A DNA stretch of 64,000 bases from an uncultured Candidatus Saccharibacteria bacterium (GTDB lineage: Bacteria > Patescibacteriota > Minisyncoccia > Minisyncoccales > Staskawiczbacteraceae), in NCBI GenBank assembly GCA_964356545.1, contig CAYHHX010000001.1, positions 1,918-65,917 of the forward strand. Reading direction: 5' to 3'. This document shows positions 5,560 through 55,475 of the stretch, piece by piece (the stretch's first letter is position 1; each line of letters starts with the position of its first letter). Made by a program: the position numbers and the translations under genes. The notes below the pieces were generated by a model. That model worked only from the letters and a program-made list of their open reading frames with translations. It had not been told where the DNA came from and made no database searches.

Positions 5560-6165
5560 ATGGATTTGAGTCAATTGACGGAAGAAGATTTTAAAGTATA
5601 TTTAATAAAAAAATTAAATAGAATATATAGTGGGTGGATTGATGGAGACAAAAATAATATTACAAACAAAACGGCCGATCTAATAAATGAACCGCTAAAA
5701 TTTGCGATTGAAATAAAAGATGACAAAACATACAAACATAAGTTTCCTCCCTTGACTGGAGAAATGATCACTAGTGGACTAGATTTGAACAATAAAAGTG
5801 AACAGTTTAAGAATCATGCAAGAGATGCAAATAAAAAATTCAAAAATTATTTAAATTATAAAACAATACTTTTAATTCGTACAGAATTAATAAATATTCC
5901 TCTTGATGTTATCGGTTATATCTTTAGCGGTATGCAGAGATTTATTAAGCCAGGTAACCGACTCATGGAAATAGGAAGAAAAAATAAGTTCCTTTCTAAA
6001 ACTAATACTACTGAAATAGGTTGCTATTTATTATTTGGGAACAATAACTATTTTTATATTGAAAATCCGAATGCAAGTTTACATAGAATTGTTTATGAAA
6101 ATATTGTAGAAAAGATATTTCAAGAAAAATTAGAAAAAATAAGAATTAATTATAAAGTAAAATAA
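5560..6165 (+). CDS. Hypothetical protein.
   Basis: 201-aa ORF in an operon-like position. Its stop overlaps the rnhA start (ATGA). No recognisable motif. Confidence 0.4.
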   Translation: MDLSQLTEEDFKVYLIKKLNRIYSGWIDGDKNNITNKTADLINEPLKFAIEIKDDKTYKHKFPPLTGEMITSGLDLNNKSEQFKNHARDANKKFKNYLNYKTILLIRTELINIPLDVIGYIFSGMQRFIKPGNRLMEIGRKNKFLSKTNTTEIGCYLLFGNNNYFYIENPNASLHRIVYENIVEKIFQEKLEKIRINYKVK

Positions 6166-6608
6166 TGAAGAAAATAATTATTTATACAGACGGAGGGTCG
6201 AGAGGAAATCCTGGTAAAGCGGCGCTTGGGGTTGTTTTTTGTAATGAAAAAGAACAGGTTATAAAAAAATACGGAGAATACTTGGGCGATAATTTAACAA
6301 ATAATGAAGCAGAGTATTCAGCTGTAATTTTTGCCCTAAAAAAGTTTAAGGCGTTTTTTGGTAAAGCCGTAGCAGAAATTAGTGAAATTGAAATAAGATC
6401 TGATTCGGAATTATTGGTAAAACAAATGAATGGCGAATATAAAATTTTAGACGAAAAAATTCAAAAGTTTTTTATAGAAATTTGGAATTTAAAAATGGAT
6501 TTTAAGGCAGTAAAATTTAAGTCTATTCCCAGAGAAAATAACAAAGAAGCCGATAGAATGGTAAACGAGGCCTTAGACGGCCACGCAGGGAGTCAAAAGT
6601 TATTTTAA
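6165..6608 (+). CDS. rnhA: Ribonuclease HI.
   Basis: 'IYTDGGSRGNPG', 'EAEYSAVIFAL', 'IRSDSELLVKQMNGEYK' and 'EADRMVNEAL' match the RNase H catalytic DEDD layout. Confidence 0.8.
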   Translation: MKKIIIYTDGGSRGNPGKAALGVVFCNEKEQVIKKYGEYLGDNLTNNEAEYSAVIFALKKFKAFFGKAVAEISEIEIRSDSELLVKQMNGEYKILDEKIQKFFIEIWNLKMDFKAVKFKSIPRENNKEADRMVNEALDGHAGSQKLF

Positions 6609-7736: not shown

Positions 7737-8184
7737 ATCTTAACAAGATGAGTGATTGCTCTTTATTAAATTGAGGAGAGGAAAGTCCGAACACCATCCT
7801 GAACTGATTTATCAGTGAAGGATAAAATAGTAGTGGCTAACAGCCATCCATAGTAATATGCGAGGTGCGAACAGTGACGCCGAGTTTCGAAAGAAACAAG
7901 GCACCGAGTATATAAATTTATTTATGTGCGAGGTGAATTCAACTGAAAAGTTGAAGTGAAACGGCTAAATCCTTATTGGGTGCAAGAACAAAGTCCCGCC
8001 CCCTAAGCAGTTAATTTTTATCAGGAAAAACCTGAGAGAGCTCTAATAGATATATTTTTTTGAGTTCTTGAATTACAGCATAGGGGGCGGGATTAAAAGT
8101 AGTTCGCTTGAATCAAGAAGTAATTCTTGGTCTAGACAGATAATCACATAAAACAGAATTCGGCTTACGGTCTTGTTAAGATAA
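7737..8184 (+). ncRNA. rnpB: RNase P RNA, bacterial type A.
   Basis: P4 strands 'GAGGAAAGTCCGaACac' (~7783) and 'ACAGAAttCGGCTTAcGG' (~8153). The P1 helix is formed by 7737-7748 'atcttaacaaga' pairing with 8171-8182 'tcttgttaagat'. Confidence 0.85.
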
Positions 8185-14935: not shown

Positions 14936-15081
14936 CTGAACTCGTTTGATTGGTAGGAGGGCTTTTGTCCTTATTATCTCCGTTTTCAAACACTTATCAA
15001 ATGTGAGCGGCAGTAATGCCGTCTTTTTTGAAAATATTGATTATTTTATTGATAGATGGTACCATAAATAAAGTAAAGGTA

Positions 15082-15222
15082 ATGGAAATAAGAAAACAGA
15101 TTTTTATTTATAAAAATTCAAAGGTTGAAAATTTAATGTTTCAAGTTTTTTCTATTATTTATCATAAATATCACGAGAAAAGTTTTTCTCTTTTAAAAAA
15201 TATTTCTGGAAGTTTTATTTAA
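15082..15222 (+). CDS. Conserved small protein (46 aa). Divergent copy A of a four-member repeated unit.
   Basis: Aligns codon by codon with the copies at 44364, 49220 and 54666 (I-R/E-K/R-Q-I-F/Y...KNSKV...MF...FS...KY-H/Q-EKS-F/L-SL...IS...F-I). The differences are mostly synonymous or conservative (GAG/GAA, AAA/AAG, TTT/TTC). SD 'aaagg' upstream. Confidence 0.5.
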   Translation: MEIRKQIFIYKNSKVENLMFQVFSIIYHKYHEKSFSLLKNISGSFI

Positions 15223-15252
15223 AAATACACCCATTAGTGGGTGTATTTTTTT
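15223..15252 (+). terminator. Intrinsic terminator of repeated unit A.
   Basis: 'atacacccattagtgggtgtat' hairpin plus T7. The same hairpin, with compensatory loop changes, ends all four units. Confidence 0.7.
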
Positions 15253-15270
15253 GGGGACATCTTAGAAAAC

Positions 15271-15288
15271 GGTGGCTGTTCTCATTTC
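15271..15288. repeat. REP element (reverse orientation, partial).
   Basis: 'ggtggctgttctcatttc' matches the family consensus AATGGTGGCTGTCCCCATTTCC. Confidence 0.5.
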
Positions 15289-22081: not shown

Positions 22082-22390
22082 ATGCCGAGGGTTCATAGAG
22101 TTGATATTAAAGAAGAGATATACCATATCATCAATCGCGCCAACGCACGGTTGCCGATTTTTTTTAACGAAGAAGATTATGTGCTATTTGAATTGATATT
22201 TGAGCAGGCGAAAGAAAGATTTGATATGCGTATCTTAGCATATTGCTTAATGCCAAATCATTTTCACTTGGTGTTGTGGCCAAAAGAAGATGACGACCTC
22301 CAAAAATTTATGCAATGGATTACCTTAACCCACACCCAGCGTTGTAAATGGGGTCAGCCACCATTTAATAATAAGTATGGTATACTGTAA
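22082..22390 (+). pseudogene. Truncated IS200/IS605-like HuH tyrosine transposase (RAYT, 5' fragment), cut by a REP insertion.
   Basis: Shares 'IYHIINRANARLPIF...YCLMPNHFHLVLWPKEDDDLQKFMQW' with the intact downstream copy but stops after 102 aa. The disrupted codons run through the REP 'aaatggggtcagccaccattt' (22346-22366). Confidence 0.65.
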
Positions 22391-22392
22391 GT

Positions 22393-23067
22393 ATGCCAAG
22401 AACAACAAGAACAGATGTTGCGCAAGAAATATACCATGTATTGAACAGAGCTAATGCCAGAGTGCAGATTTTTGATGACGATAAAGATTATCTAGATTTC
22501 GAAAAAATATTACAAGAAGCAGTAGAAAAGTTTAATATGGGGCTATTGGCGTATTGTATTATGCCGAACCACTGGCATTTAGTCCTGCATCCAAAACAAG
22601 ACGGCGATCTTGCTAAATTCATGGGATGGCTTTCAAATACCCATACGCGAAGATGGCATACCCAAAAGGGAACCATTGGACAAGGACATCTTTATCAGGG
22701 AAGATACAAGTCATTTTTATGCCAGCAAGATGATCATTTTATTACATTAGTTTTATATGTTGAGCGCAATGCAAAAAAGGCTGACTTGTGTAAGTTAGCT
22801 CAGGATTGGAAGTGGTCTAGCATTTGGCGAAGGGAGAGTGGATTGGCAGAGCAGACTGCGATTTTAGAGAAATGGCCGATTGATATGCCAAAAAATTATT
22901 TATCACTAGTTAATCAAAATCAAGACGCGAACGAAGAAGAAAGAATTGAAAAAGCCATTGATAAAAGTAATCCATATGGAGATACTCATTGGATTCAGAA
23001 AGTAGTTAAAAAGTTTGGTCTTGAGCAAACATTAAGAAGGGTGGGGAGGCCAAAGAATGGTGGCTGA
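22393..23067 (+). mobile_element. REP-associated tyrosine transposase (RAYT, IS200-like Y1 HuH transposase), apparently intact.
   Basis: HuH motif 'MPNHWHLVLHP' and catalytic-Tyr region 'GHLYQGRYKSF'. Its 3' end abuts the REP 'gaatggtggctgaccctaatttcc' (23056-23078). REPs of the same family are spread through the window. Confidence 0.75.
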
Positions 23068-44029: not shown

Positions 44030-44363
44030 CACATTGGTTTGCGTAAAGGCGAATGATTTTATAGGAGTAACTCGTAGTTACTCCTTTTTATTTTCTGAAT
44101 TTATCACTATTCTTTCCTACTTTTCTTTGTCCGGAGATGAAAAAAAATGTCATTAATCAGTTAGTTACCCAGTACGAAAGAACTTTTGGCAAAGCACCCC
44201 ATGAATTATGCAAAGAGGTTGTCCAAGATTTAATAGCAGAAATGCCCCCAGAAGAAATTCCTTCAAGTTTAAAGTAAGTACTATTTAGTACACCAGTGGC
44301 CATAGTGTTGTTTTTTTGAAAAAACTGTTGATTGTTTTACTAACAGGTGGTATTATTAGCATA

Positions 44364-44513
44364 ATGAAGACAATAGAAAGAGGTAAGCAGATTTATATGC
44401 ATAAAAATTCAAAGGTTGGAATTTCAATGTTCCGCGCTTTTTCTAGTGTTCCTGATAAATATCAGGAAAAGAGTCTTTCTCTTTCAAAAAGTATTTCTGA
44501 AAATTTTATTTAA
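44364..44513 (+). CDS. Conserved small protein (49 aa), copy B of the repeated unit.
   Basis: Near-identical to copies C and D. Promoter TTGATT-N17-TATTAT lies directly upstream, giving a leaderless or near-leaderless start. Terminator at 44514-44543. Confidence 0.5.
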   Translation: MKTIERGKQIYMHKNSKVGISMFRAFSSVPDKYQEKSLSLSKSISENFI

Positions 44514-44543
44514 AAATACACTCATTAGCGGGTGTATTTTTTT
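44514..44543 (+). terminator. Intrinsic terminator of unit B.
   Basis: 'aatacactcattagcgggtgtattttttt'. Confidence 0.7.
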
Positions 44544-44545
44544 AA

Positions 44546-44620
44546 AAATTATGCATTTTGGAGAACATTTAACAATCGATGGATACGGTGGTAACTTTGA
44601 AAAGCTAAATGATGAAGAAT
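44546..44620 (+). pseudogene. 5' fragment of a pyruvoyl-dependent S-adenosylmethionine decarboxylase-like gene (speH/speD-like), truncated by a REP.
   Basis: 'MHFGEHLTIDGYGGNFEKLNDEE' matches the AdoMetDC N-terminus pattern G-x-H-L-x-x-D/E-x-Y-G-C/G-x-F-x-K-L-N-D. The frame then runs into the REP at 44617-44650. Confidence 0.45.
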
Positions 44621-44650
44621 GGTGGCTGTCCCCATTGTCCCTCCCATTAC
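44617..44650. repeat. REP element (reverse orientation).
   Basis: 'gaatggtggctgtccccattgtccctcccattac'. Confidence 0.6.
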
Positions 44651-44698
44651 TCATTACTGCAGAGGTCAGCCGTATTGCATTATAAGAAAAATCATGGC

Positions 44699-48974: not shown

Positions 48975-49094
48975 ATAGAAAAAATTAAGTCGTTAAGCAA
49001 ATGAAAAAACAAATAGTAATAATTCACCGGGGTTTCGCATTTGATACGTATAAATATAATAAATGGGGTGAAATAGGGACAGAAATAGGAAATA

Positions 49095-49120
49095 GGGGAA
49101 ATGGGGACGGCCACCATTTT
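49095..49120. repeat. REP element preceded by tandem degenerate half-repeats (49061-49094).
   Basis: 'aaatggggtgaaatagggacagaaataggaaataggggaaatggggacggccaccatttt'. Confidence 0.6.
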
Positions 49121-49183
49121 ATTTAATATTTTTTATTTGAATAAAATAATTAAGTGGCTATAGTGTTGTTTTTTTAAAAACTG

Positions 49184-49212
49184 TTGATTGTTTTATTGAC
49201 AGGTGGTATTAT
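49184..49212 (+). promoter_or_regulatory. Promoter of repeated unit C (TTGATT-N17-TATTAT). The same arrangement is present in units B and D.
   Basis: TTGATT 49184-49189, 17-nt spacer, TATTAT 49207-49212. The ATG at 49220 sits ~7 nt downstream, so the transcript would be leaderless. Confidence 0.5.
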
Positions 49213-49219
49213 TAGCACG

Positions 49220-49369
49220 ATGAAGACAATAGAAAGAGGTAAGCAGATTTATACGCATAAAAATTCAAAGGTTGGAATTTCAATGTTCCGCGCTTTTTCT
49301 AGTGTTCCTGATAAATATCAGGAAAAGAGTCTTTCTCTTTCAAAAAGTATTTCTGAAAATTTTACTTAA
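49220..49369 (+). CDS. Conserved small protein (49 aa), copy C. Identical to copy D.
   Basis: MKTIERGKQIYTHKNSKVGISMFRAFSSVPDKYQEKSLSLSKSISENFT. See copies A and B for the selection argument. Confidence 0.5.
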   Translation: MKTIERGKQIYTHKNSKVGISMFRAFSSVPDKYQEKSLSLSKSISENFT

Positions 49370-49398
49370 AAATACACCAATTAGCAGGTGTATTTTTT
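49369..49398 (+). terminator. Intrinsic terminator of unit C.
   Basis: 'aatacaccaattagcaggtgtatttttt'. The stem is preserved relative to units A and B despite loop changes. Confidence 0.7.
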
Positions 49399-49415
49399 GA
49401 TTAAGTTAATGATTA

Positions 49416-49490
49416 TGCATTTTGGGGAACATCTTACAATTGATGGATATGGCGGTCTTTTTGAAAAGCTAAATGATAAAAATGGTGTCT
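49416..49490 (+). pseudogene. Second 5' fragment of the AdoMetDC-like gene (MHFGEHLTIDGYGGLFEKLNDKNGV*), ending in a degenerate REP.
   Basis: Same N-terminal peptide as at 44546, followed by 'aaaaatggtgtctgatccc' (a degenerate REP). Confidence 0.4.
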
Positions 49491-49641
49491 GATCCCACGT
49501 AGTATGTGAACCAGAGCTGGTGATTGACAACACTTTTTGGTTAATATAGTATGAAACTGAAGGATTAAGAAGCTTTGCGTTTTGCATATTTTTCCATGAT
49601 CCTTGTTGTTCTTTGAAAAAATAAAGGGAGGTTGGTAAAAC

Positions 49642-50670
49642 ATGAAGTACAATAACCATCTGAATCCGATGAGTGTGAGAGAGTTTTATTCCGATTCTGC
49701 TATGCCACTTTTTTACCAGGAGTGGGCTAATAACTCTGGTAAAGAACCTTTGAGTTCCAAAAAAGTCAGAATTGCTATTACCGAAAAGTGTAACTTCGCG
49801 TGTCCATTTTGTTATAACGAAGGAATGTCTAATATTTCAAAGATATTGAGCGTAGGAGATATTAGGTTAATTGCCGAGGCAATATCTCCTTACGTTTCAG
49901 GATTAAAGATTGTTGGTGGTGAGCCTTTGTTACATCCTCAGTTTGGCGAGGTTGTTGAGCTCTGTTCTAAAACTTGTTCAACAACTGTCACTACTAATGG
50001 GTTTTTCCTTGACCGATGGACTAAGTATTTGGAGAGACTTACTGGAATAACGGTAAGTATCCAATCGCTCAACCCAGAAATCTATCGGTCCTTAATGGGT
50101 ACTCGCTTTGGACCAGAAGTAGTATTAAGGCAGATATCCCTATTTACAGAAAAAACAGAGATACCAGTTTCTGTAAATTGCGTTTTGACAAATGAAAATT
50201 CTCCCTCGATTTTAAATTTCATCGAGGAAATAGTATCTTGTGGCGCCAATGCTGTAAATTTGTTGGGACTCCTTTGTATTACAGACAAGGACAAAGAGGG
50301 GTATTATCCCCTTACATCCATTGTTGCTATTCTGACCGACAAGTATGGTCAGCCCGAAGTTGTTTCAAGTACGAGATTGAGATTTAGAATAAAAGAAAGC
50401 GTCCACACAGATGTTGTATACCAATTCTGTATGGTGGGCTGTGGTGTTTGTCGAACCGACGGATTTATTCGATTCGATCCAACGCCTGCTATTTCTTACT
50501 GCCTAGCGTCAGGTCCCATATCGATAAAGGAGGAAATTGATTCGAAAGATCCCTTAAAAATTCGTCAGTTGTTTTTAAGGGCTGTAAACCAGATGGGTCA
50601 ACCAACTGGTTATAAATACCAGGTTGTCTCCAGGAGACCAGACTCCAAGGGGATATACTCCTTATTGTAA
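49642..50670 (+). CDS. Radical SAM enzyme with a C-terminal Cys-rich (twitch/SPASM-like) region.
   Basis: 'ITEKCNFACPFCYNEG' (CX3CX2C) and a second cluster 'QFCMVGCGVCRTDG'. Strong SD 'aaagggagg' precedes the ATG. Putative promoter TTGACA ~49527. Confidence 0.7.
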   Translation: MKYNNHLNPMSVREFYSDSAMPLFYQEWANNSGKEPLSSKKVRIAITEKCNFACPFCYNEGMSNISKILSVGDIRLIAEAISPYVSGLKIVGGEPLLHPQFGEVVELCSKTCSTTVTTNGFFLDRWTKYLERLTGITVSIQSLNPEIYRSLMGTRFGPEVVLRQISLFTEKTEIPVSVNCVLTNENSPSILNFIEEIVSCGANAVNLLGLLCITDKDKEGYYPLTSIVAILTDKYGQPEVVSSTRLRFRIKESVHTDVVYQFCMVGCGVCRTDGFIRFDPTPAISYCLASGPISIKEEIDSKDPLKIRQLFLRAVNQMGQPTGYKYQVVSRRPDSKGIYSLL

Positions 50671-54505: not shown

Positions 54506-54518
54506 TTTCTTATTACAA

Positions 54519-54555
54519 GGAAATGGGGAAATGGAAATGGGGACAGCCATTATTT
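54519..54555. repeat. REP element with tandem half-repeats.
   Basis: 'ggaaatggggaaatggaaatggggacagccattattt'. Confidence 0.6.
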
Positions 54556-54665
54556 GACAATAAAATAGAAACAGAAATAAAATCTATTTTGAAATTAAGT
54601 GGCTTACCGTCGCTTTTTTTTAAAAACTGTTGATTGTTTTATTGACAGGTGGTATTATTAGCACG

Positions 54666-54815
54666 ATGAAGACAATAGAAAGAGGTAAGCAGATTTATAC
54701 GCATAAAAATTCAAAGGTTGGAATTTCAATGTTCCGCGCTTTTTCTAGTGTTCCTGATAAATATCAGGAAAAGAGTCTTTCTCTTTCAAAAAGTATTTCT
54801 GAAAATTTTACTTAA
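54666..54815 (+). CDS. Conserved small protein (49 aa), copy D.
   Basis: Identical to copy C, including the promoter (54630-54658). Terminator at 54815-54846. Confidence 0.5.
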   Translation: MKTIERGKQIYTHKNSKVGISMFRAFSSVPDKYQEKSLSLSKSISENFT

Positions 54816-54857
54816 AAATACACCAATTAGCAGGTGTATTTTTTGATTAAGTTAATG

Positions 54858-55475
54858 ATTGATTTTACAGATTCAAAATCGGTAATTGGGCTCATCGCAG
54901 GCATTATTGCTTTTACGGCTTATATTATCTATATAATTTCAATATTAAAAGGCAGAACCAAGCCAAATAGGTCAACTTGGTGGATTTGGTCGTTTATGGG
55001 ATTGGTGGTTGGACTAAGTTATTATTTATCAGGCGCCGTTAATACTATTTGGGTTCCAGTAGTTGAGTTTATAGGGCCATTATCTATTGCACTATTGTCT
55101 GTAAAATATGGAGAAGGGAAGTTGAGCGATAAAACAGACTTAATTTGTCTCGTTGGCGCGGTTTTGAGTGTAATTTTATGGATAATATTTAATAATCCTG
55201 TTATTGCTTTAGTAACCAATTTAGCGGCCGATTCATTTGCTATTGTTCCTACTATTAAAAAATCATATTTACGACCAGAAGGAGAAGATTTTTGGGCATG
55301 GCTTGGCACAGGCACCGCCGACAGTTTGAATTTCTTTGCTGTTGAAAGATTTTCCTTTGCGATTCTTATTTATCCGATTTATATGCTCGTTTCAGACCTT
55401 ATTATAGTTATAGTATTATTAATGAAGAAAAAAGATATTATGAAAGATACTAGTTTTCTTAGAAAAAAAATATGA
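54858..55475 (+). CDS. Hypothetical multi-pass membrane protein whose start codon lies inside the 3' end of repeated unit D.
   Basis: The ATG at 54858 is the same 'gttaATGatt' that precedes the AdoMetDC-like fragment in unit C. About six hydrophobic helices. Confidence 0.45.
   Translation: MDFTDSKSVIGLIAGIIAFTAYIIYIISILKGRTKPNRSTWWIWSFMGLVVGLSYYLSGAVNTIWVPVVEFIGPLSIALLSVKYGEGKLSDKTDLICLVGAVLSVILWIIFNNPVIALVTNLAADSFAIVPTIKKSYLRPEGEDFWAWLGTGTADSLNFFAVERFSFAILIYPIYMLVSDLIIVIVLLMKKKDIMKDTSFLRKKI

What the first reader, a model, noticed from the sequence alone, without database searches (positions are those of the whole stretch)
44290..44546. Four-copy ~230-bp unit with promoter, a conserved 46-49-codon ORF under apparent purifying selection, and a strong terminator abutting the next gene's start
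Copies lie at ~15040-15252, 44290-44543, 49150-49415 and 54600-54857. Copies B, C and D are >95% identical. Copy A is diverged, yet its ORF aligns codon for codon with mostly synonymous or conservative changes (GAA/GAG, AAA/AAG, TTT/TTC, Y/F, M/I, R/K). That argues the ORF is translated. A perfect hairpin present only in B-D ('ttcctgataaatatcaggaa') is not conserved in A, which argues against a purely structural RNA. Each unit ends in the same intrinsic terminator ~18 nt before the start codon of the downstream gene. Those genes are the RHS toxin, AdoMetDC-like fragments (twice) and a membrane protein. The layout is that of a leader-peptide attenuator or uORF cassette, or of a mobile expression module. 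The peptide (for example MKTIERGKQIYTHKNSKVGISMFRAFSSVPDKYQEKSLSLSKSISENFT) has no homology I recognise. Multiple near-identical small peptide genes around a radical SAM gene also raise a RiPP-precursor possibility, though there are no Cys residues.
Basis: seen in the sequence. Interest (0 to 1): 0.8.

Follow-up and report, generated by a model that had tools for sequence, protein, structure and literature searches.

The report
Esterase-gene relic reused as leader cassette
The four-copy unit is real. Its small reading frame is the decayed first ~46 codons, plus the promoter, of an esterase gene, ending in a strong terminator, and in related groundwater ultra-small bacteria this cassette normally sits in front of a polyamine-synthesis gene, where it probably acts as a translation-dependent on/off leader.

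Summary
The repeat is confirmed. There are four + strand copies (15001-15264, 44291-44553, 49150-49413, 54593-54859). B, C and D are 93-98% identical to each other, and A is about 76% identical to them.

The claim of purifying selection is not confirmed. Between A and B/C, 24 of 28 codon differences are non-synonymous and dN/dS is about 1. Across 11 copies, synonymous changes are not enriched.

The peptide does have homology. It matches the promoter and first ~40-46 codons of a 252-254 aa alpha/beta-hydrolase gene (hhalign E=2.6e-10). The catalytic HG motif has decayed and the rest of the enzyme is missing.

The frame is nevertheless kept open in all 15 distinct copies from this window, a Candidatus Staskawiczbacteria genome and groundwater metagenomes. 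Only 3 of 5000 neutral simulations reproduce this. All five indels are multiples of three. In 11 of 14 copies the stop codon overlaps the base of the intrinsic terminator.

The usual context is directly upstream of a 128-aa AdoMetDC gene with no room for another promoter. Window copies B and C carry 23-25-codon AdoMetDC stumps cut by REP elements of a RAYT transposase system.

Best reading: a ribosome-dependent (pyrBI-like) attenuator cassette built from a gene fragment and then copied around. No riboswitch, antiterminator or RiPP signal was found. Function is inferred, not shown.

The parts
44293..44317 (+). Copy B: upstream hairpin plus T-run (terminator of the preceding gene). It is part of the repeated segment in all four copies.
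   Evidence: Aligned GTGGC...T-run block in A-D and in L008, L009, L010, L067 and L077. The D version was scored as terminator-like.
44328..44356 (+). Copy B promoter: -35 TTGATT, 17-nt spacer, extended -10 TGgTATTAT. It ends 7 nt before the ATG, suggesting a leaderless transcript.
   Evidence: It is conserved in 14 copies. The parent esterase gene in L070 has the same geometry, TGtTATAAT-8 nt-ATG.
44364..44513 (+). Copy B: 49-codon ORF (MKTIERGKQIYMHKNSKVGISMFRAFSSVPDKYQEKSLSLSKSISENFI). It is a relic of the first ~40-46 codons of an alpha/beta-hydrolase gene.
   Evidence: hhalign E=2.6e-10 to L071 esterase residues 1-39; tblastn E=9e-6; frame kept open in all copies.
44512..44543 (+). Copy B intrinsic terminator (AAAAATACAC-loop-GTGTATTTTTTT). 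The stem starts at the second base of the stop codon.
   Evidence: dG -12.2 kcal/mol; 95.5% of cells paired and 3 pairs with compensatory changes.
44551..44685 (+). Copy B: AdoMetDC type-1 5' stump. 23 codons are homologous (44551-44619), after which the frame runs into a REP element.
   Evidence: tblastn to the L009/L082 AdoMetDC, 96% identity over 23 aa, E 3e-11. The full gene is PF02675, E 5e-26.
44618..44636 (+). REP-like element AATGGTGGCTGTCCCCATT that truncates the AdoMetDC stump.
   Evidence: 14 copies in the window vs 0.02 expected.
15005..15252 (+). Copy A (diverged): upstream hairpin 15005-15029, promoter 15037-15065, ORF 15082-15222 (46 codons), terminator 15221-15252.
15268..15286 (+). 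REP-like element directly after copy A. The RHS gene's own promoter and ATG (15355) follow.
49100..49118 (-). REP-like element upstream of copy C.
49152..49398 (+). Copy C: upstream hairpin 49152-49175, promoter 49184-49212, ORF 49220-49369, terminator 49368-49398.
49415..49492 (+). Copy C: AdoMetDC type-1 5' stump (25 codons plus stop), followed by a degenerate REP.
   Evidence: tblastn E 2.5e-9; repeat D4.
54536..54554 (-). REP-like element upstream of copy D.
54597..54844 (+). Copy D: upstream hairpin 54597-54621, promoter 54630-54658, ORF 54666-54815, terminator 54814-54844.
54855..55475 (+). YhhN-like membrane protein gene. Its ATGATT start is the last part shared with copy C, so the cassette is fused exactly at the start codon.
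22393..23067 (+). RAYT-type (IS200-like Y1) transposase gene flanked by REP elements at 22347 and 23056. It is the likely source of the REP elements next to the cassettes.
   Evidence: tblastn E 5e-116 to L040 4566-5243, which is PF01797 at E 3e-19.

Best explanation
The unit is a self-contained transcription cassette: upstream terminator, extended -10 promoter, a probably leaderless 46-49-codon ORF, then an intrinsic terminator.

Origin. Its promoter and ORF descend from the 5' end of an alpha/beta-hydrolase (esterase) gene. The enzyme is gone. The HG motif has decayed and the nucleophile elbow and the rest of the fold are absent, so the peptide is not an esterase.

Usual context. In a clade of Parcubacteria (candidate phyla radiation) the cassette sits immediately upstream of a 128-aa AdoMetDC gene. 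There is no room for another promoter and no Shine-Dalgarno sequence. Transcription of that gene therefore has to pass the cassette's terminator.

Proposed mechanism (inferred). The stop codon overlaps the foot of the terminator stem. A ribosome that translates the leader ORF and reaches the stop codon while RNA polymerase is at the T-run covers the 5' arm of the hairpin. This suppresses termination and may also open the start region of the downstream gene. Without a closely following ribosome, the hairpin forms and transcription ends. What matters is that the frame is translated to that exact point, not what the peptide is.

The window copies. The four copies here are dispersed duplicates of this cassette. 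B and C still carry 23-25 codons of the AdoMetDC gene, cut by REP elements. D is fused at the start codon of a membrane-protein gene and may still serve as its leader. A and C are followed by genes with their own promoters and are probably orphans.
For: Shown by tool results:
- Homology of the ORF to esterase residues 1-39: hhalign probability 96.8%, E 2.6e-10. Nucleotide identity is 58-68% over 136 nt and the promoter geometry is shared. A truncated esterase was hit in the whole-library profile search (P0011, E 2.8e-5).
- The esterases are PF12146 Hydrolase_4. Their GNSFG nucleophile elbow lies at about residues 90-95, outside the fragment.
- Context. The unit lies directly before a full AdoMetDC gene in L009 and L082 (PF02675). 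It precedes its start MHFGEHLTIDG in L008, L010, L007, L083 and L084. Truncated stumps with nearly the same end point occur in window B and C, L040, L074 and L079.
- The frame is open in all 14 full copies plus partial L067, while the other two frames carry 26 and 63 stops. When the same parsimony substitutions are placed at random, all copies stay stop-free in 3 of 5000 runs (11 sequences) and 56 of 5000 runs (6 DNA-ascertained sequences).
- Indels inside the ORF are +12, -42, +3, -3 and -6 nt, all in frame.
- Amino-acid identity is barely constrained. The synonymous fraction is 0.194 vs 0.196 in the null. On the tree it is 0.257 vs 0.221 (P 0.13). Median pairwise dN/dS is about 0.5, against 0.12 for the same region of the real esterases.
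- The stop codon is 1 nt from the first paired base of the terminator in 11 of 14 copies. TAA and TGA interchange at the same site. In L008 the stop is lost and the ORF reads through the hairpin to a TGA just after the T-run.
- The terminator has compensatory changes.

From the literature:
- In E. coli, moving a stop codon from 28 to 5 bp upstream of terminator tR2 lowered termination from about 90% to under 10%. Uncoupling translation restored termination (PMC4824070).
Against: - There is no expression data. Translation, the transcription start and terminator read-through are all inferred.
- No regulatory codon run and no antiterminator were found. The best pairing of upstream RNA with the terminator's 5' arm is no better than for shuffled sequence and is not positionally conserved. 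The signal being sensed is therefore unknown.
- PMC4824070 also reports that ribosomes often cannot catch up with RNA polymerase within the first ~100 bp. The ORF here is only 141-150 nt.
- The start codon moves between codons 1, 3 and 4. Copies with the later ATG lack a clear leaderless geometry or Shine-Dalgarno sequence.
- Window copies A and C precede genes with their own promoters, so at least half of the window copies cannot be acting as leaders.
- In L005 the AdoMetDC gene has its own promoter and no cassette, so the association is not obligatory.
- Eight of the fifteen copies were found through protein searches, which favours open frames.
Confidence: 0.5

Rival explanations
1. A functionless mosaic of gene fragments. 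The esterase 5' end plus the AdoMetDC 5' end was created and scattered by REP/RAYT-associated rearrangement. Promoter, terminator and open frame are simply inherited and not yet decayed.
For: - dN/dS is about 1 for A versus B-D and the synonymous fraction equals the null.
- The HG motif is lost.
- The AlphaFold model is poor (pLDDT 62, pTM 0.30).
- REP elements abut all four window copies, and a RAYT gene lies in the window and next to the copy in L040.
- A and C are followed by genes with their own promoters.
Against: - The cassette persists with the same length, promoter, stop position and terminator at up to about 35% divergence. It is found in a separate species-level genome (Candidatus Staskawiczbacteria, L040) and in several metagenomes.
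- Stop-free frames are very unlikely under neutral placement of the observed substitutions (3/5000 and 56/5000).
- All five indels are in frame, while the flanks are full of indels.
- At least seven loci place it directly in front of an intact AdoMetDC gene with no other promoter.
Confidence: 0.2
2. An independent small-protein gene. The 46-49-aa peptide, although born from an esterase N-terminus, now has its own function, for example as a partner or regulator of AdoMetDC.
For: - The frame is kept open and indels are in frame.
- Synonymous changes are somewhat enriched in codons 25-36 (17 synonymous vs 30 non-synonymous) and in the closest pair L040/L074 (5 synonymous, 3 non-synonymous; dN/dS 0.11).
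- The C-terminal KNISxNFI is fairly conserved.
- Copy A survives as a stand-alone unit.
Against: - Overall there is no excess of synonymous change.
- dN reaches 0.2-0.48 between copies.
- Codons 1-12 show 44 non-synonymous vs 4 synonymous changes.
- A 14-residue in-frame deletion is tolerated in L010.
- In L008 the stop is lost, adding an 11-residue tail.
- The structure model is low-confidence.
- There are no Pfam hits.
Confidence: 0.13
3. A non-coding RNA. It would be either a riboswitch or protein-binding leader for AdoMetDC, or a multi-copy trans-acting sRNA of about 185 nt released at the terminator.
For: - The unit is an insulated promoter-to-terminator cassette of sRNA size and is present in several copies.
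- Nucleotide blocks are conserved, such as ATAAAAATTCAAAGGTTG.
- Whole-unit folds give z-scores of -3.1 and -3.7.
- One small helix (columns 66-83) shows an AU/GC swap.
- Attenuator RNAs can act in trans, e.g. rnTrpL (PMC6614838, listed).
Against: - No Rfam family is hit at gathering score or at E<0.6.
- RNAalifold gives a covariation term of only -2.2 kcal/mol, and apart from one AU/GC swap in helix 66-83 the compensatory support lies in the terminator.
- No antiterminator was found.
- The conserved blocks are the same ones conserved in the parent esterase coding sequence.
- An RNA-only model does not explain stop avoidance or in-frame indels.
Confidence: 0.12
4. A RiPP precursor peptide gene family serviced by the nearby radical SAM enzyme.
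For: There are several near-identical small ORFs, and a radical SAM gene (49642-50670, PF04055) lies 270 nt after copy C.
Against: - Only one of four window copies is near the radical SAM gene, which has its own promoter-like site and a GGGAGG Shine-Dalgarno sequence.
- None of the 11 other loci pairs the ORF with a radical SAM or other maturase. The recurrent neighbour is AdoMetDC.
- The peptide is a decayed esterase N-terminus with no Cys and no conserved core or leader split.
Confidence: 0.01

Closest known systems
pyrBI-type ribosome-mediated attenuation in E. coli, and more generally ribosome repression of intrinsic terminators placed next to a stop codon (PMC4824070)
   Same: - A leader ORF of about 45-50 codons ends at or in an intrinsic terminator just upstream of the regulated gene.
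- No antiterminator structure is needed, because the ribosome itself blocks hairpin formation.
- The peptide sequence is unimportant, which fits the near-neutral amino-acid evolution together with a conserved frame.
   Different: - There is no sequence relationship.
- No evidence was found for nucleotide-sensitive pause sites, and the signal is unknown.
- The transcript is probably leaderless.
- The regulated gene is AdoMetDC rather than a pyrimidine gene.
- The leader is demonstrably a relic of another gene and occurs in several dispersed copies.
- Nothing has been tested experimentally in these uncultivated bacteria.
Classical leader-peptide attenuators (trpL, hisL, pheL)
   Same: A short translated ORF, an intrinsic terminator and a downstream biosynthetic gene lie on the same strand with no intervening promoter.
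   Different: - No run of regulatory codons is present.
- No alternative 2:3 antiterminator pairing exists.
- The ORF is three times longer.
Eukaryotic AdoMetDC uORF (MAGDIS) and other polyamine-responsive uORFs or arrest peptides (AZIN1, HOL1; bacterial SpeFL, TnaC)
   Same: A small ORF lies upstream of a polyamine-pathway gene. The uORF review PMC11550727 describes polyamine-dependent stalling at or near uORF stop codons. Stalling at the stop codon here would mask the terminator.
   Different: - This is an analogy only.
- There is no sequence similarity and no conserved arrest motif was shown.
- The direction of regulation is unknown.
- MAGDIS, SpeFL and TnaC are recalled from general knowledge, not tested here.
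Alpha/beta-hydrolase family Hydrolase_4 (PF12146), represented by the esterases at L070 12381-13139 and L071 3608-4372
   Same: The promoter geometry and the first ~40-46 codons are homologous (E 2.6e-10).
   Different: Only the first strand and loop region is present. The HG oxyanion motif is mutated and the Ser-Asp-His catalytic machinery is absent. It is a relic, not a member.
REP elements with RAYT transposases (REPINs)
   Same: A 19-nt imperfect palindrome is dispersed 14 times in 64 kb. A Y1 transposase gene is flanked by two of them. REP elements abut every cassette copy and cut the AdoMetDC stumps.
   Different: The cassette itself is not a REP or REPIN. Whether RAYT activity, or recombination between REPs, moved the cassette is not shown.

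Membership tests
Ribosome-dependent transcription attenuator (leader ORF type) | Short ORF on the same strand upstream of the regulated gene, within the same transcription unit | tested here: met
   A 46-49-codon ORF lies 4-20 nt (plus the terminator) before the AdoMetDC ATG in L009, L082, L008, L010, L007 and window B and C. There is no room for a second promoter.
Ribosome-dependent transcription attenuator (leader ORF type) | Intrinsic terminator between the leader ORF and the gene | tested here: met
   An 11-14-bp stem plus a run of 6-8 T, dG -9 to -17.5 kcal/mol, is present in 12 of 14 copies when scored from each copy's first stop; L008 also carries it within its read-through ORF, and only L081 lacks it. 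Compensatory changes occur in 3 pairs.
Ribosome-dependent transcription attenuator (leader ORF type) | Alternative antiterminator structure competing with the terminator (trp/his type) | tested here: not met
   The best duplex of upstream RNA with the terminator's 5' arm equals the shuffled controls and is not positionally conserved. This does not exclude the pyrBI type, which needs none.
Ribosome-dependent transcription attenuator (leader ORF type) | Regulatory codons or an arrest motif that tie translation to a signal | tested here: inconclusive
   No codon run was found. The C-terminal KNISxNFI is moderately conserved, but there is no statistical support.
Ribosome-dependent transcription attenuator (leader ORF type) | Stop codon close enough to the hairpin for a terminating ribosome to block it (pyrBI type) | tested here: met
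   The stem begins at base 2 of the stop codon in 11 of 14 copies. The experimental distance dependence is in PMC4824070.
Ribosome-dependent transcription attenuator (leader ORF type) | Translation-dependent read-through shown experimentally | not testable with these tools
   The organisms are uncultivated and no expression data were available.
Alpha/beta hydrolase, Hydrolase_4 (PF12146) | Sequence homology to family members | tested here: met
   hhalign E 2.6e-10 to L071 residues 1-39; tblastn E 9e-6.
Alpha/beta hydrolase, Hydrolase_4 (PF12146) | Complete fold with nucleophile elbow GxSxG, catalytic Asp/His and the HG oxyanion motif | tested here: not met
   The ORF stops after 46-49 codons. 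LHGF has become FRAF, FHAF, FQVF or SYVF. There is no Pfam hit for the ORF itself.
Known RNA families (Rfam 15), including riboswitches and sRNAs | Match to a covariance model at gathering score | tested here: not met
   There are no hits in the units at gathering score. The best sub-threshold hit has E 0.65 and covers only the terminator region.
RiPP precursor | Conserved co-location with a maturase, and a conserved core peptide | tested here: not met
   A radical SAM gene lies near one copy only. The other loci show AdoMetDC, methyltransferase or RHS genes instead.
REP/RAYT system (context, not the unit itself) | Y1 (IS200-like) transposase gene flanked by REP sequences, with many dispersed REP copies | tested here: met
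   PF01797 at E 3e-19 for the L040 homologue. The window gene 22393-23067 is 73% identical and is flanked by REPs at 22347 and 23056. There are 14 REPs vs 0.02 expected.

The most novel reading that the evidence does not exclude
The leader ORF is a metabolite-sensing arrest peptide. A ribosome stalls at or near the conserved ...KNISENFI-stop end in response to a polyamine or SAM-related signal. The stall masks the overlapping terminator and switches the AdoMetDC gene. This would be a bacterial counterpart of the eukaryotic AdoMetDC uORF. It would have arisen by exaptation of an esterase gene fragment and be spread as a portable regulatory cassette by REP/RAYT activity in candidate-phyla-radiation bacteria.
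Probability: 0.1. Interest if true: 0.8.

Novelty: new variant of a known kind. Interest (0 to 1): 0.45.

Why it matters
Almost nothing is known about gene regulation in candidate-phyla-radiation bacteria, which cannot be grown alone. If the model holds, it would give three things:
- A first candidate cis-regulatory leader for a polyamine-pathway gene in these organisms.
- A clear case of how a leader ORF can be born, from the promoter and first codons of an unrelated enzyme gene. Selection would then act on keeping the frame open up to the terminator rather than on the peptide.
- An example of such a module being copied in front of other genes next to REP/RAYT elements.

It is also a caution for annotation. 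Gene callers report these units as 46-88-aa hypothetical proteins.

All of this rests on sequence comparison of about 15 copies. Without expression data it remains a well-supported hypothesis, not a discovery.

Tried and rejected
- Rfam at gathering and E-value thresholds gave nothing for the unit.
- Exact look-up of the 49-aa peptide found nothing on record.
- The genome-collection scan with a two-block DNA pattern gave 54 hits, of which 53 were chance matches and one was real (L040).
- The viral-contig scan gave no hits.
- The RNAalifold and pair-count search for structure across the ORF found that, apart from one AU/GC swap in helix 66-83, only the terminator has compensatory support.
- The antiterminator search by duplex folding against shuffles was negative.
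- AlphaFold on the peptide alignment gave pLDDT 62 and pTM 0.30, so no fold search was attempted.
- I tested whether the second 49-codon ORF in L040 (5782-5931), upstream of a type-2 AdoMetDC, is a diverged copy. It is not significant (hhalign E 0.12).
- I tested whether the esterase 3' end supplied the terminator. L070 and L071 show no similar terminator after the esterase gene.
- I checked whether L005's own AdoMetDC has the unit upstream. It does not; it has its own promoter.
- A diversity-generating retroelement was considered and dropped. Differences between copies are not adenine-specific and no reverse transcriptase was noticed near the copies (inspection only).
- Literature searches for a bacterial AdoMetDC leader peptide and for CPR leaderless promoters found no prior description.
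Full report
**1. The observation**

The repeat finder reports one four-member family at 15022-15267, 44313-44558, 49169-49414 and 54615-54860. An nhmmer profile recovers the same four places with E-values of 1e-68 to 1e-93 and nothing else in the window.

Over the 246-nt core, B/C are 95.5% identical, C/D 97.6% and B/D 93.1%. A is 75-77% identical to the others.

Each copy has the following parts:
- an upstream hairpin plus T-run;
- TTGATT, a 17-nt spacer and an extended -10 (TGgTATTAT; TACCAT in A);
- an ATG 7 nt after the -10 in B-D;
- a 46-49-codon ORF;
- a strong hairpin plus T-run, with dG of -11.8 to -16.8 kcal/mol.

So the repeat, the ORF and the terminator are real.

The distance to the next start codon is about 7 nt in B and 10-16 nt in C. 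It is 10 nt in D. In A the RHS start (15355) is about 100 nt away, behind a REP element and a near-consensus promoter of its own.

**2. The claim of purifying selection does not hold**

Between A and C, 28 codons differ and 24 of those differences are non-synonymous. Differences fall 6/13-15/9 on codon positions 1/2/3, and NG86 dN/dS is 0.97-1.03.

I assembled 11 ungapped copies and ran three tests:
- Median pairwise dN/dS is about 0.5, with a range of 0.1-2.6.
- The fraction of codon differences that are synonymous (0.194) equals that of column-shuffled alignments (0.196 +/- 0.039, P 0.51).
- On a neighbour-joining tree with parsimony states the synonymous fraction is 0.257 against 0.221 for randomly placed substitutions (P 0.13).

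As a positive control, the same region of the two real esterase genes gives dN/dS of 0.12. The peptide sequence is therefore at most weakly constrained. The constraint is strongest in codons 25-36 and absent in codons 1-12.

**3. Where the window comes from, and relatives**

An exact-protein look-up of a neighbouring gene places the contig in Hainich groundwater metagenomes, 0.1-um fraction.

Relatives of the unit were found in four ways:
- A profile search of the ORF in the 5.8-billion-protein set found seven small ORFs.
- The exhaustive HMMER search added five more small ORFs plus one truncated esterase and one unrelated repetitive protein.
- A DNA pattern scan of species-representative genomes gave 53 chance hits and one true copy, in Candidatus Staskawiczbacteria RIFCSPLOWO2_01_FULL_33_13 (L040).
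- A stricter pattern in metagenome contigs gave further copies: L067, L074, L068 (same as L040) and L075 (same as L005). Unexpectedly it also hit two full-length genes, in L070 and L071.

No copy was found on viral contigs.

**4. The ORF is a relic of an esterase gene**

In L070 (12381-13139) and L071 (3608-4372) the matching DNA is the start of a 252-254-aa alpha/beta hydrolase (PF12146 Hydrolase_4, E 1e-17 to 1e-19).

The esterase sequence MKGGEPIFIDKNSKVGILMLHGFSSTPNEFKELSIFLSK aligns with the unit's MKTIERGKQIY.HKNSKVGISMFRAFSSVPDKYQEKSLSLSK. The supporting figures are:
- hhalign probability 96.8%, E 2.6e-10, 49% identity;
- tblastn E 9e-6 against B, C and D;
- nucleotide identity of 58-68% over 136 nt.

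The extended -10 promoter sits 7-8 nt before the ATG in the esterase gene too.

In the units the oxyanion-hole HG motif has become RA, HA, QV or YV, except in L077. The GNSFG nucleophile elbow and everything after it are absent. An AlphaFold model of the peptide is poor (pLDDT 62, pTM 0.30). So the peptide has a recognisable homologue, but it is a decayed fragment and not an enzyme.

**5. The usual genomic partner is AdoMetDC**

The unit lies directly upstream of ATGCATTTTGGnGAACAT (MHFGEHLTIDGYGG) in B, C, L007, L008, L009, L010, L079 and L082-L084. It also precedes the close variant MYFGEH in L040 and L074.

In L009 and L082 this is a complete 128-aa gene (PF02675 AdoMet_dc, E 5e-26). The T-run and the ATG are 4-20 nt apart. 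There is no Shine-Dalgarno sequence and no space for a promoter.

In window B and C, and in L040, L074 and L079, only 23-27 codons remain. They end at almost the same point (after KLNDK/E). In B, C and L040 a REP element follows.

Other copies precede different genes:
- a methyltransferase in L005;
- an RHS-type toxin in L077;
- a YhhN-like membrane protein in D;
- RHS in A.

In D, identity with C runs exactly to ATGATT, the start of the membrane-protein gene.

The window contains no intact AdoMetDC or esterase gene. L005 shows that AdoMetDC can also have its own promoter without the unit.

**6. What is conserved**

All 14 full copies and partial L067 keep the frame open from an ATG within the first four codons to a stop at the terminator. 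The other two frames carry 26 and 63 stops in the same alignment, and none of 2000 column shuffles is stop-free.

I re-placed the 166 parsimony substitutions at random positions with the same base changes. Every copy stayed stop-free in 3 of 5000 runs. For the six copies ascertained by DNA alone (86 substitutions) the figure is 56 of 5000.

Indels inside the ORF are +12 (L067, DNA-ascertained), -42 (L010), +3 and -3 (L077) and -6 nt (L081). All are in frame, while the flanks are full of indels.

In 11 of 14 copies the terminator stem begins at the second base of the stop codon, with TAA and TGA interchanging in place. In L008 a 1-nt insertion destroys the stop, and the frame runs through the hairpin to a TGA just after the T-run.

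**7. RNA structure**

RNAalifold gives a covariation term of only -2.2 kcal/mol. Helix by helix:
- The terminator is 95.5% paired, with three pairs changed on both sides.
- A six-pair helix at alignment columns 66-83 has one AU/GC swap.

No segment upstream pairs with the terminator's 5' arm better than shuffled sequence. Rfam has no match. I therefore find no riboswitch-like or trp-type alternative structure.

**8. Mechanism**

The pattern is a frame and a stop position under constraint, a peptide sequence nearly free, a stop codon embedded in the foot of an intrinsic terminator, and the regulated gene immediately behind it without its own promoter. This is what is expected if the act of translating to that point is what matters.

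A ribosome at the stop codon covers the 11-nt 5' arm of the hairpin. In E. coli, moving a stop codon from 28 to 5 bp upstream of terminator tR2 lowered termination from about 90% to under 10%, and uncoupling translation restored termination (PMC4824070). pyrBI attenuation works on the same principle (general knowledge; also cited in that paper).

I therefore propose a ribosome-dependent attenuator of the pyrBI kind. These steps are inferred and not shown:
- the transcription start;
- translation of the ORF;
- terminator efficiency;
- coupling of transcription and translation in these bacteria;
- the physiological signal.

The same paper notes that ribosomes often fail to catch RNA polymerase within the first ~100 bp, so the effect may be partial.

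**9. Why four copies**

The 19-mer AATGGTGGCTGTCCCCATT occurs 14 times in the window (0.02 expected). Copies lie at these places next to the units:
- just after A (15268);
- inside the AdoMetDC stump of B (44618);
- about 50 nt upstream of C (49100);
- about 60 nt upstream of D (54536).

A RAYT-type Y1 transposase gene (22393-23067) is flanked by two of them. Its homologue in L040 (PF01797) lies directly upstream of that genome's cassette.

The stumps have the same truncation point in different species. This suggests that a composite of cassette plus about 75 nt of AdoMetDC arose once and was then copied. Whether RAYT or REP-mediated recombination did the copying is not shown.

A and C now stand before genes with their own promoters, so they are probably orphans. 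D, and possibly B, could still act as leaders.

**10. Rivals**

- A purely decaying fragment mosaic is contradicted by stop avoidance, in-frame indels and cross-species conservation of geometry. It remains possible for individual copies such as A and C.
- A free-standing small protein is not excluded. It is disfavoured by near-neutral amino-acid change, tolerated deletion and extension, and the poor model.
- An sRNA or riboswitch lacks structural support and does not explain the coding-like constraints. The terminated leader RNA could still have a trans role.
- A RiPP precursor is rejected by synteny.

**11. Novelty and score**

I found no description of this element in Rfam, Pfam or the searched literature. 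The mechanism class is known. The family, its origin from an esterase gene fragment, its link to AdoMetDC in candidate-phyla-radiation bacteria and its dispersal next to REP/RAYT elements are new. The evidence is comparative only and rests on about 15 copies. I rate interest at 0.45.

Noticed in passing
window 15268, 22038, 22347, 23056, 24436, 36720, 37697, 41425, 42912, 44618, 49100, 54536, 59641, 63496 (19 nt each): A REP-like imperfect palindrome, AATGGTGGCTGTCCCCATT, occurs 14 times in both orientations (0.02 expected by chance). It is often preceded by short tandem GGAAATGG or AAATGGGG repeats, for example at 49070-49100 and 54515-54540.
   Followed up: partly
window 22393-23067 (+), 22082-22390 (+), 63423-63491 (+): A RAYT-type IS200-like Y1 transposase gene is flanked by REPs. 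A truncated tandem copy lies just upstream. A C-terminal remnant sits next to the REP at 63496. The gene lies downstream of the RHS toxin and a small ORF, the same order as in the Staskawiczbacteria locus L040.
   Followed up: partly
window 7740-8183 (+): A class A RNase P RNA scores exactly at the Rfam gathering threshold (100.1 vs 100 bits). It has several large insertions and is therefore an atypical RNase P RNA.
   Followed up: no
window 58553-58621 and 63518-63586 (+): A second repeated 69-nt intergenic segment (93% identical) contains a TTGACA-type promoter-like site. The second copy lies directly after a REP element. It may be another duplicated upstream module.
   Followed up: no
window 57733-57846, 57968-58030, 59852-59965 (+): The 3' ends of histidine-kinase ATPase domains are repeated at 67-84% identity. 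These are paralogous or fragmentary kinase gene ends.
   Followed up: no
L070 12355-12383; L005 2640-2666; window 44348-44366: Several genes of this lineage have an extended -10 element 7-8 nt before the ATG and no Shine-Dalgarno sequence, which suggests frequent leaderless mRNAs. Others, such as the radical SAM gene at 49642, have a strong GGGAGG.
   Followed up: no
L040 5782-5960: Another 49-codon ORF has a stop codon abutting an intrinsic terminator, about 100 nt upstream of a type-2 AdoMetDC gene (6058-6438). The architecture is the same as the unit, but sequence homology is not significant (hhalign E 0.12).
   Followed up: partly
L079 975-1058 and 1115-1510; L040 5537-5614 and 6058-6438: In two genomes the cassette plus a truncated type-1 AdoMetDC stump sits directly upstream of an intact AdoMetDC of a different subtype (PYGxELxxDLHDC). 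This looks as though one paralogue replaced the other behind the same leader.
   Followed up: no
window 44137-44277 (+): A 46-aa ORF ends in ...IAEMPPEEIPSSLK. It matches the C-terminus of a 97-aa protein in L040 (7652-7945) and the gene end upstream of the unit in L010. It is probably a truncated copy of a conserved neighbour of the cassette.
   Followed up: no
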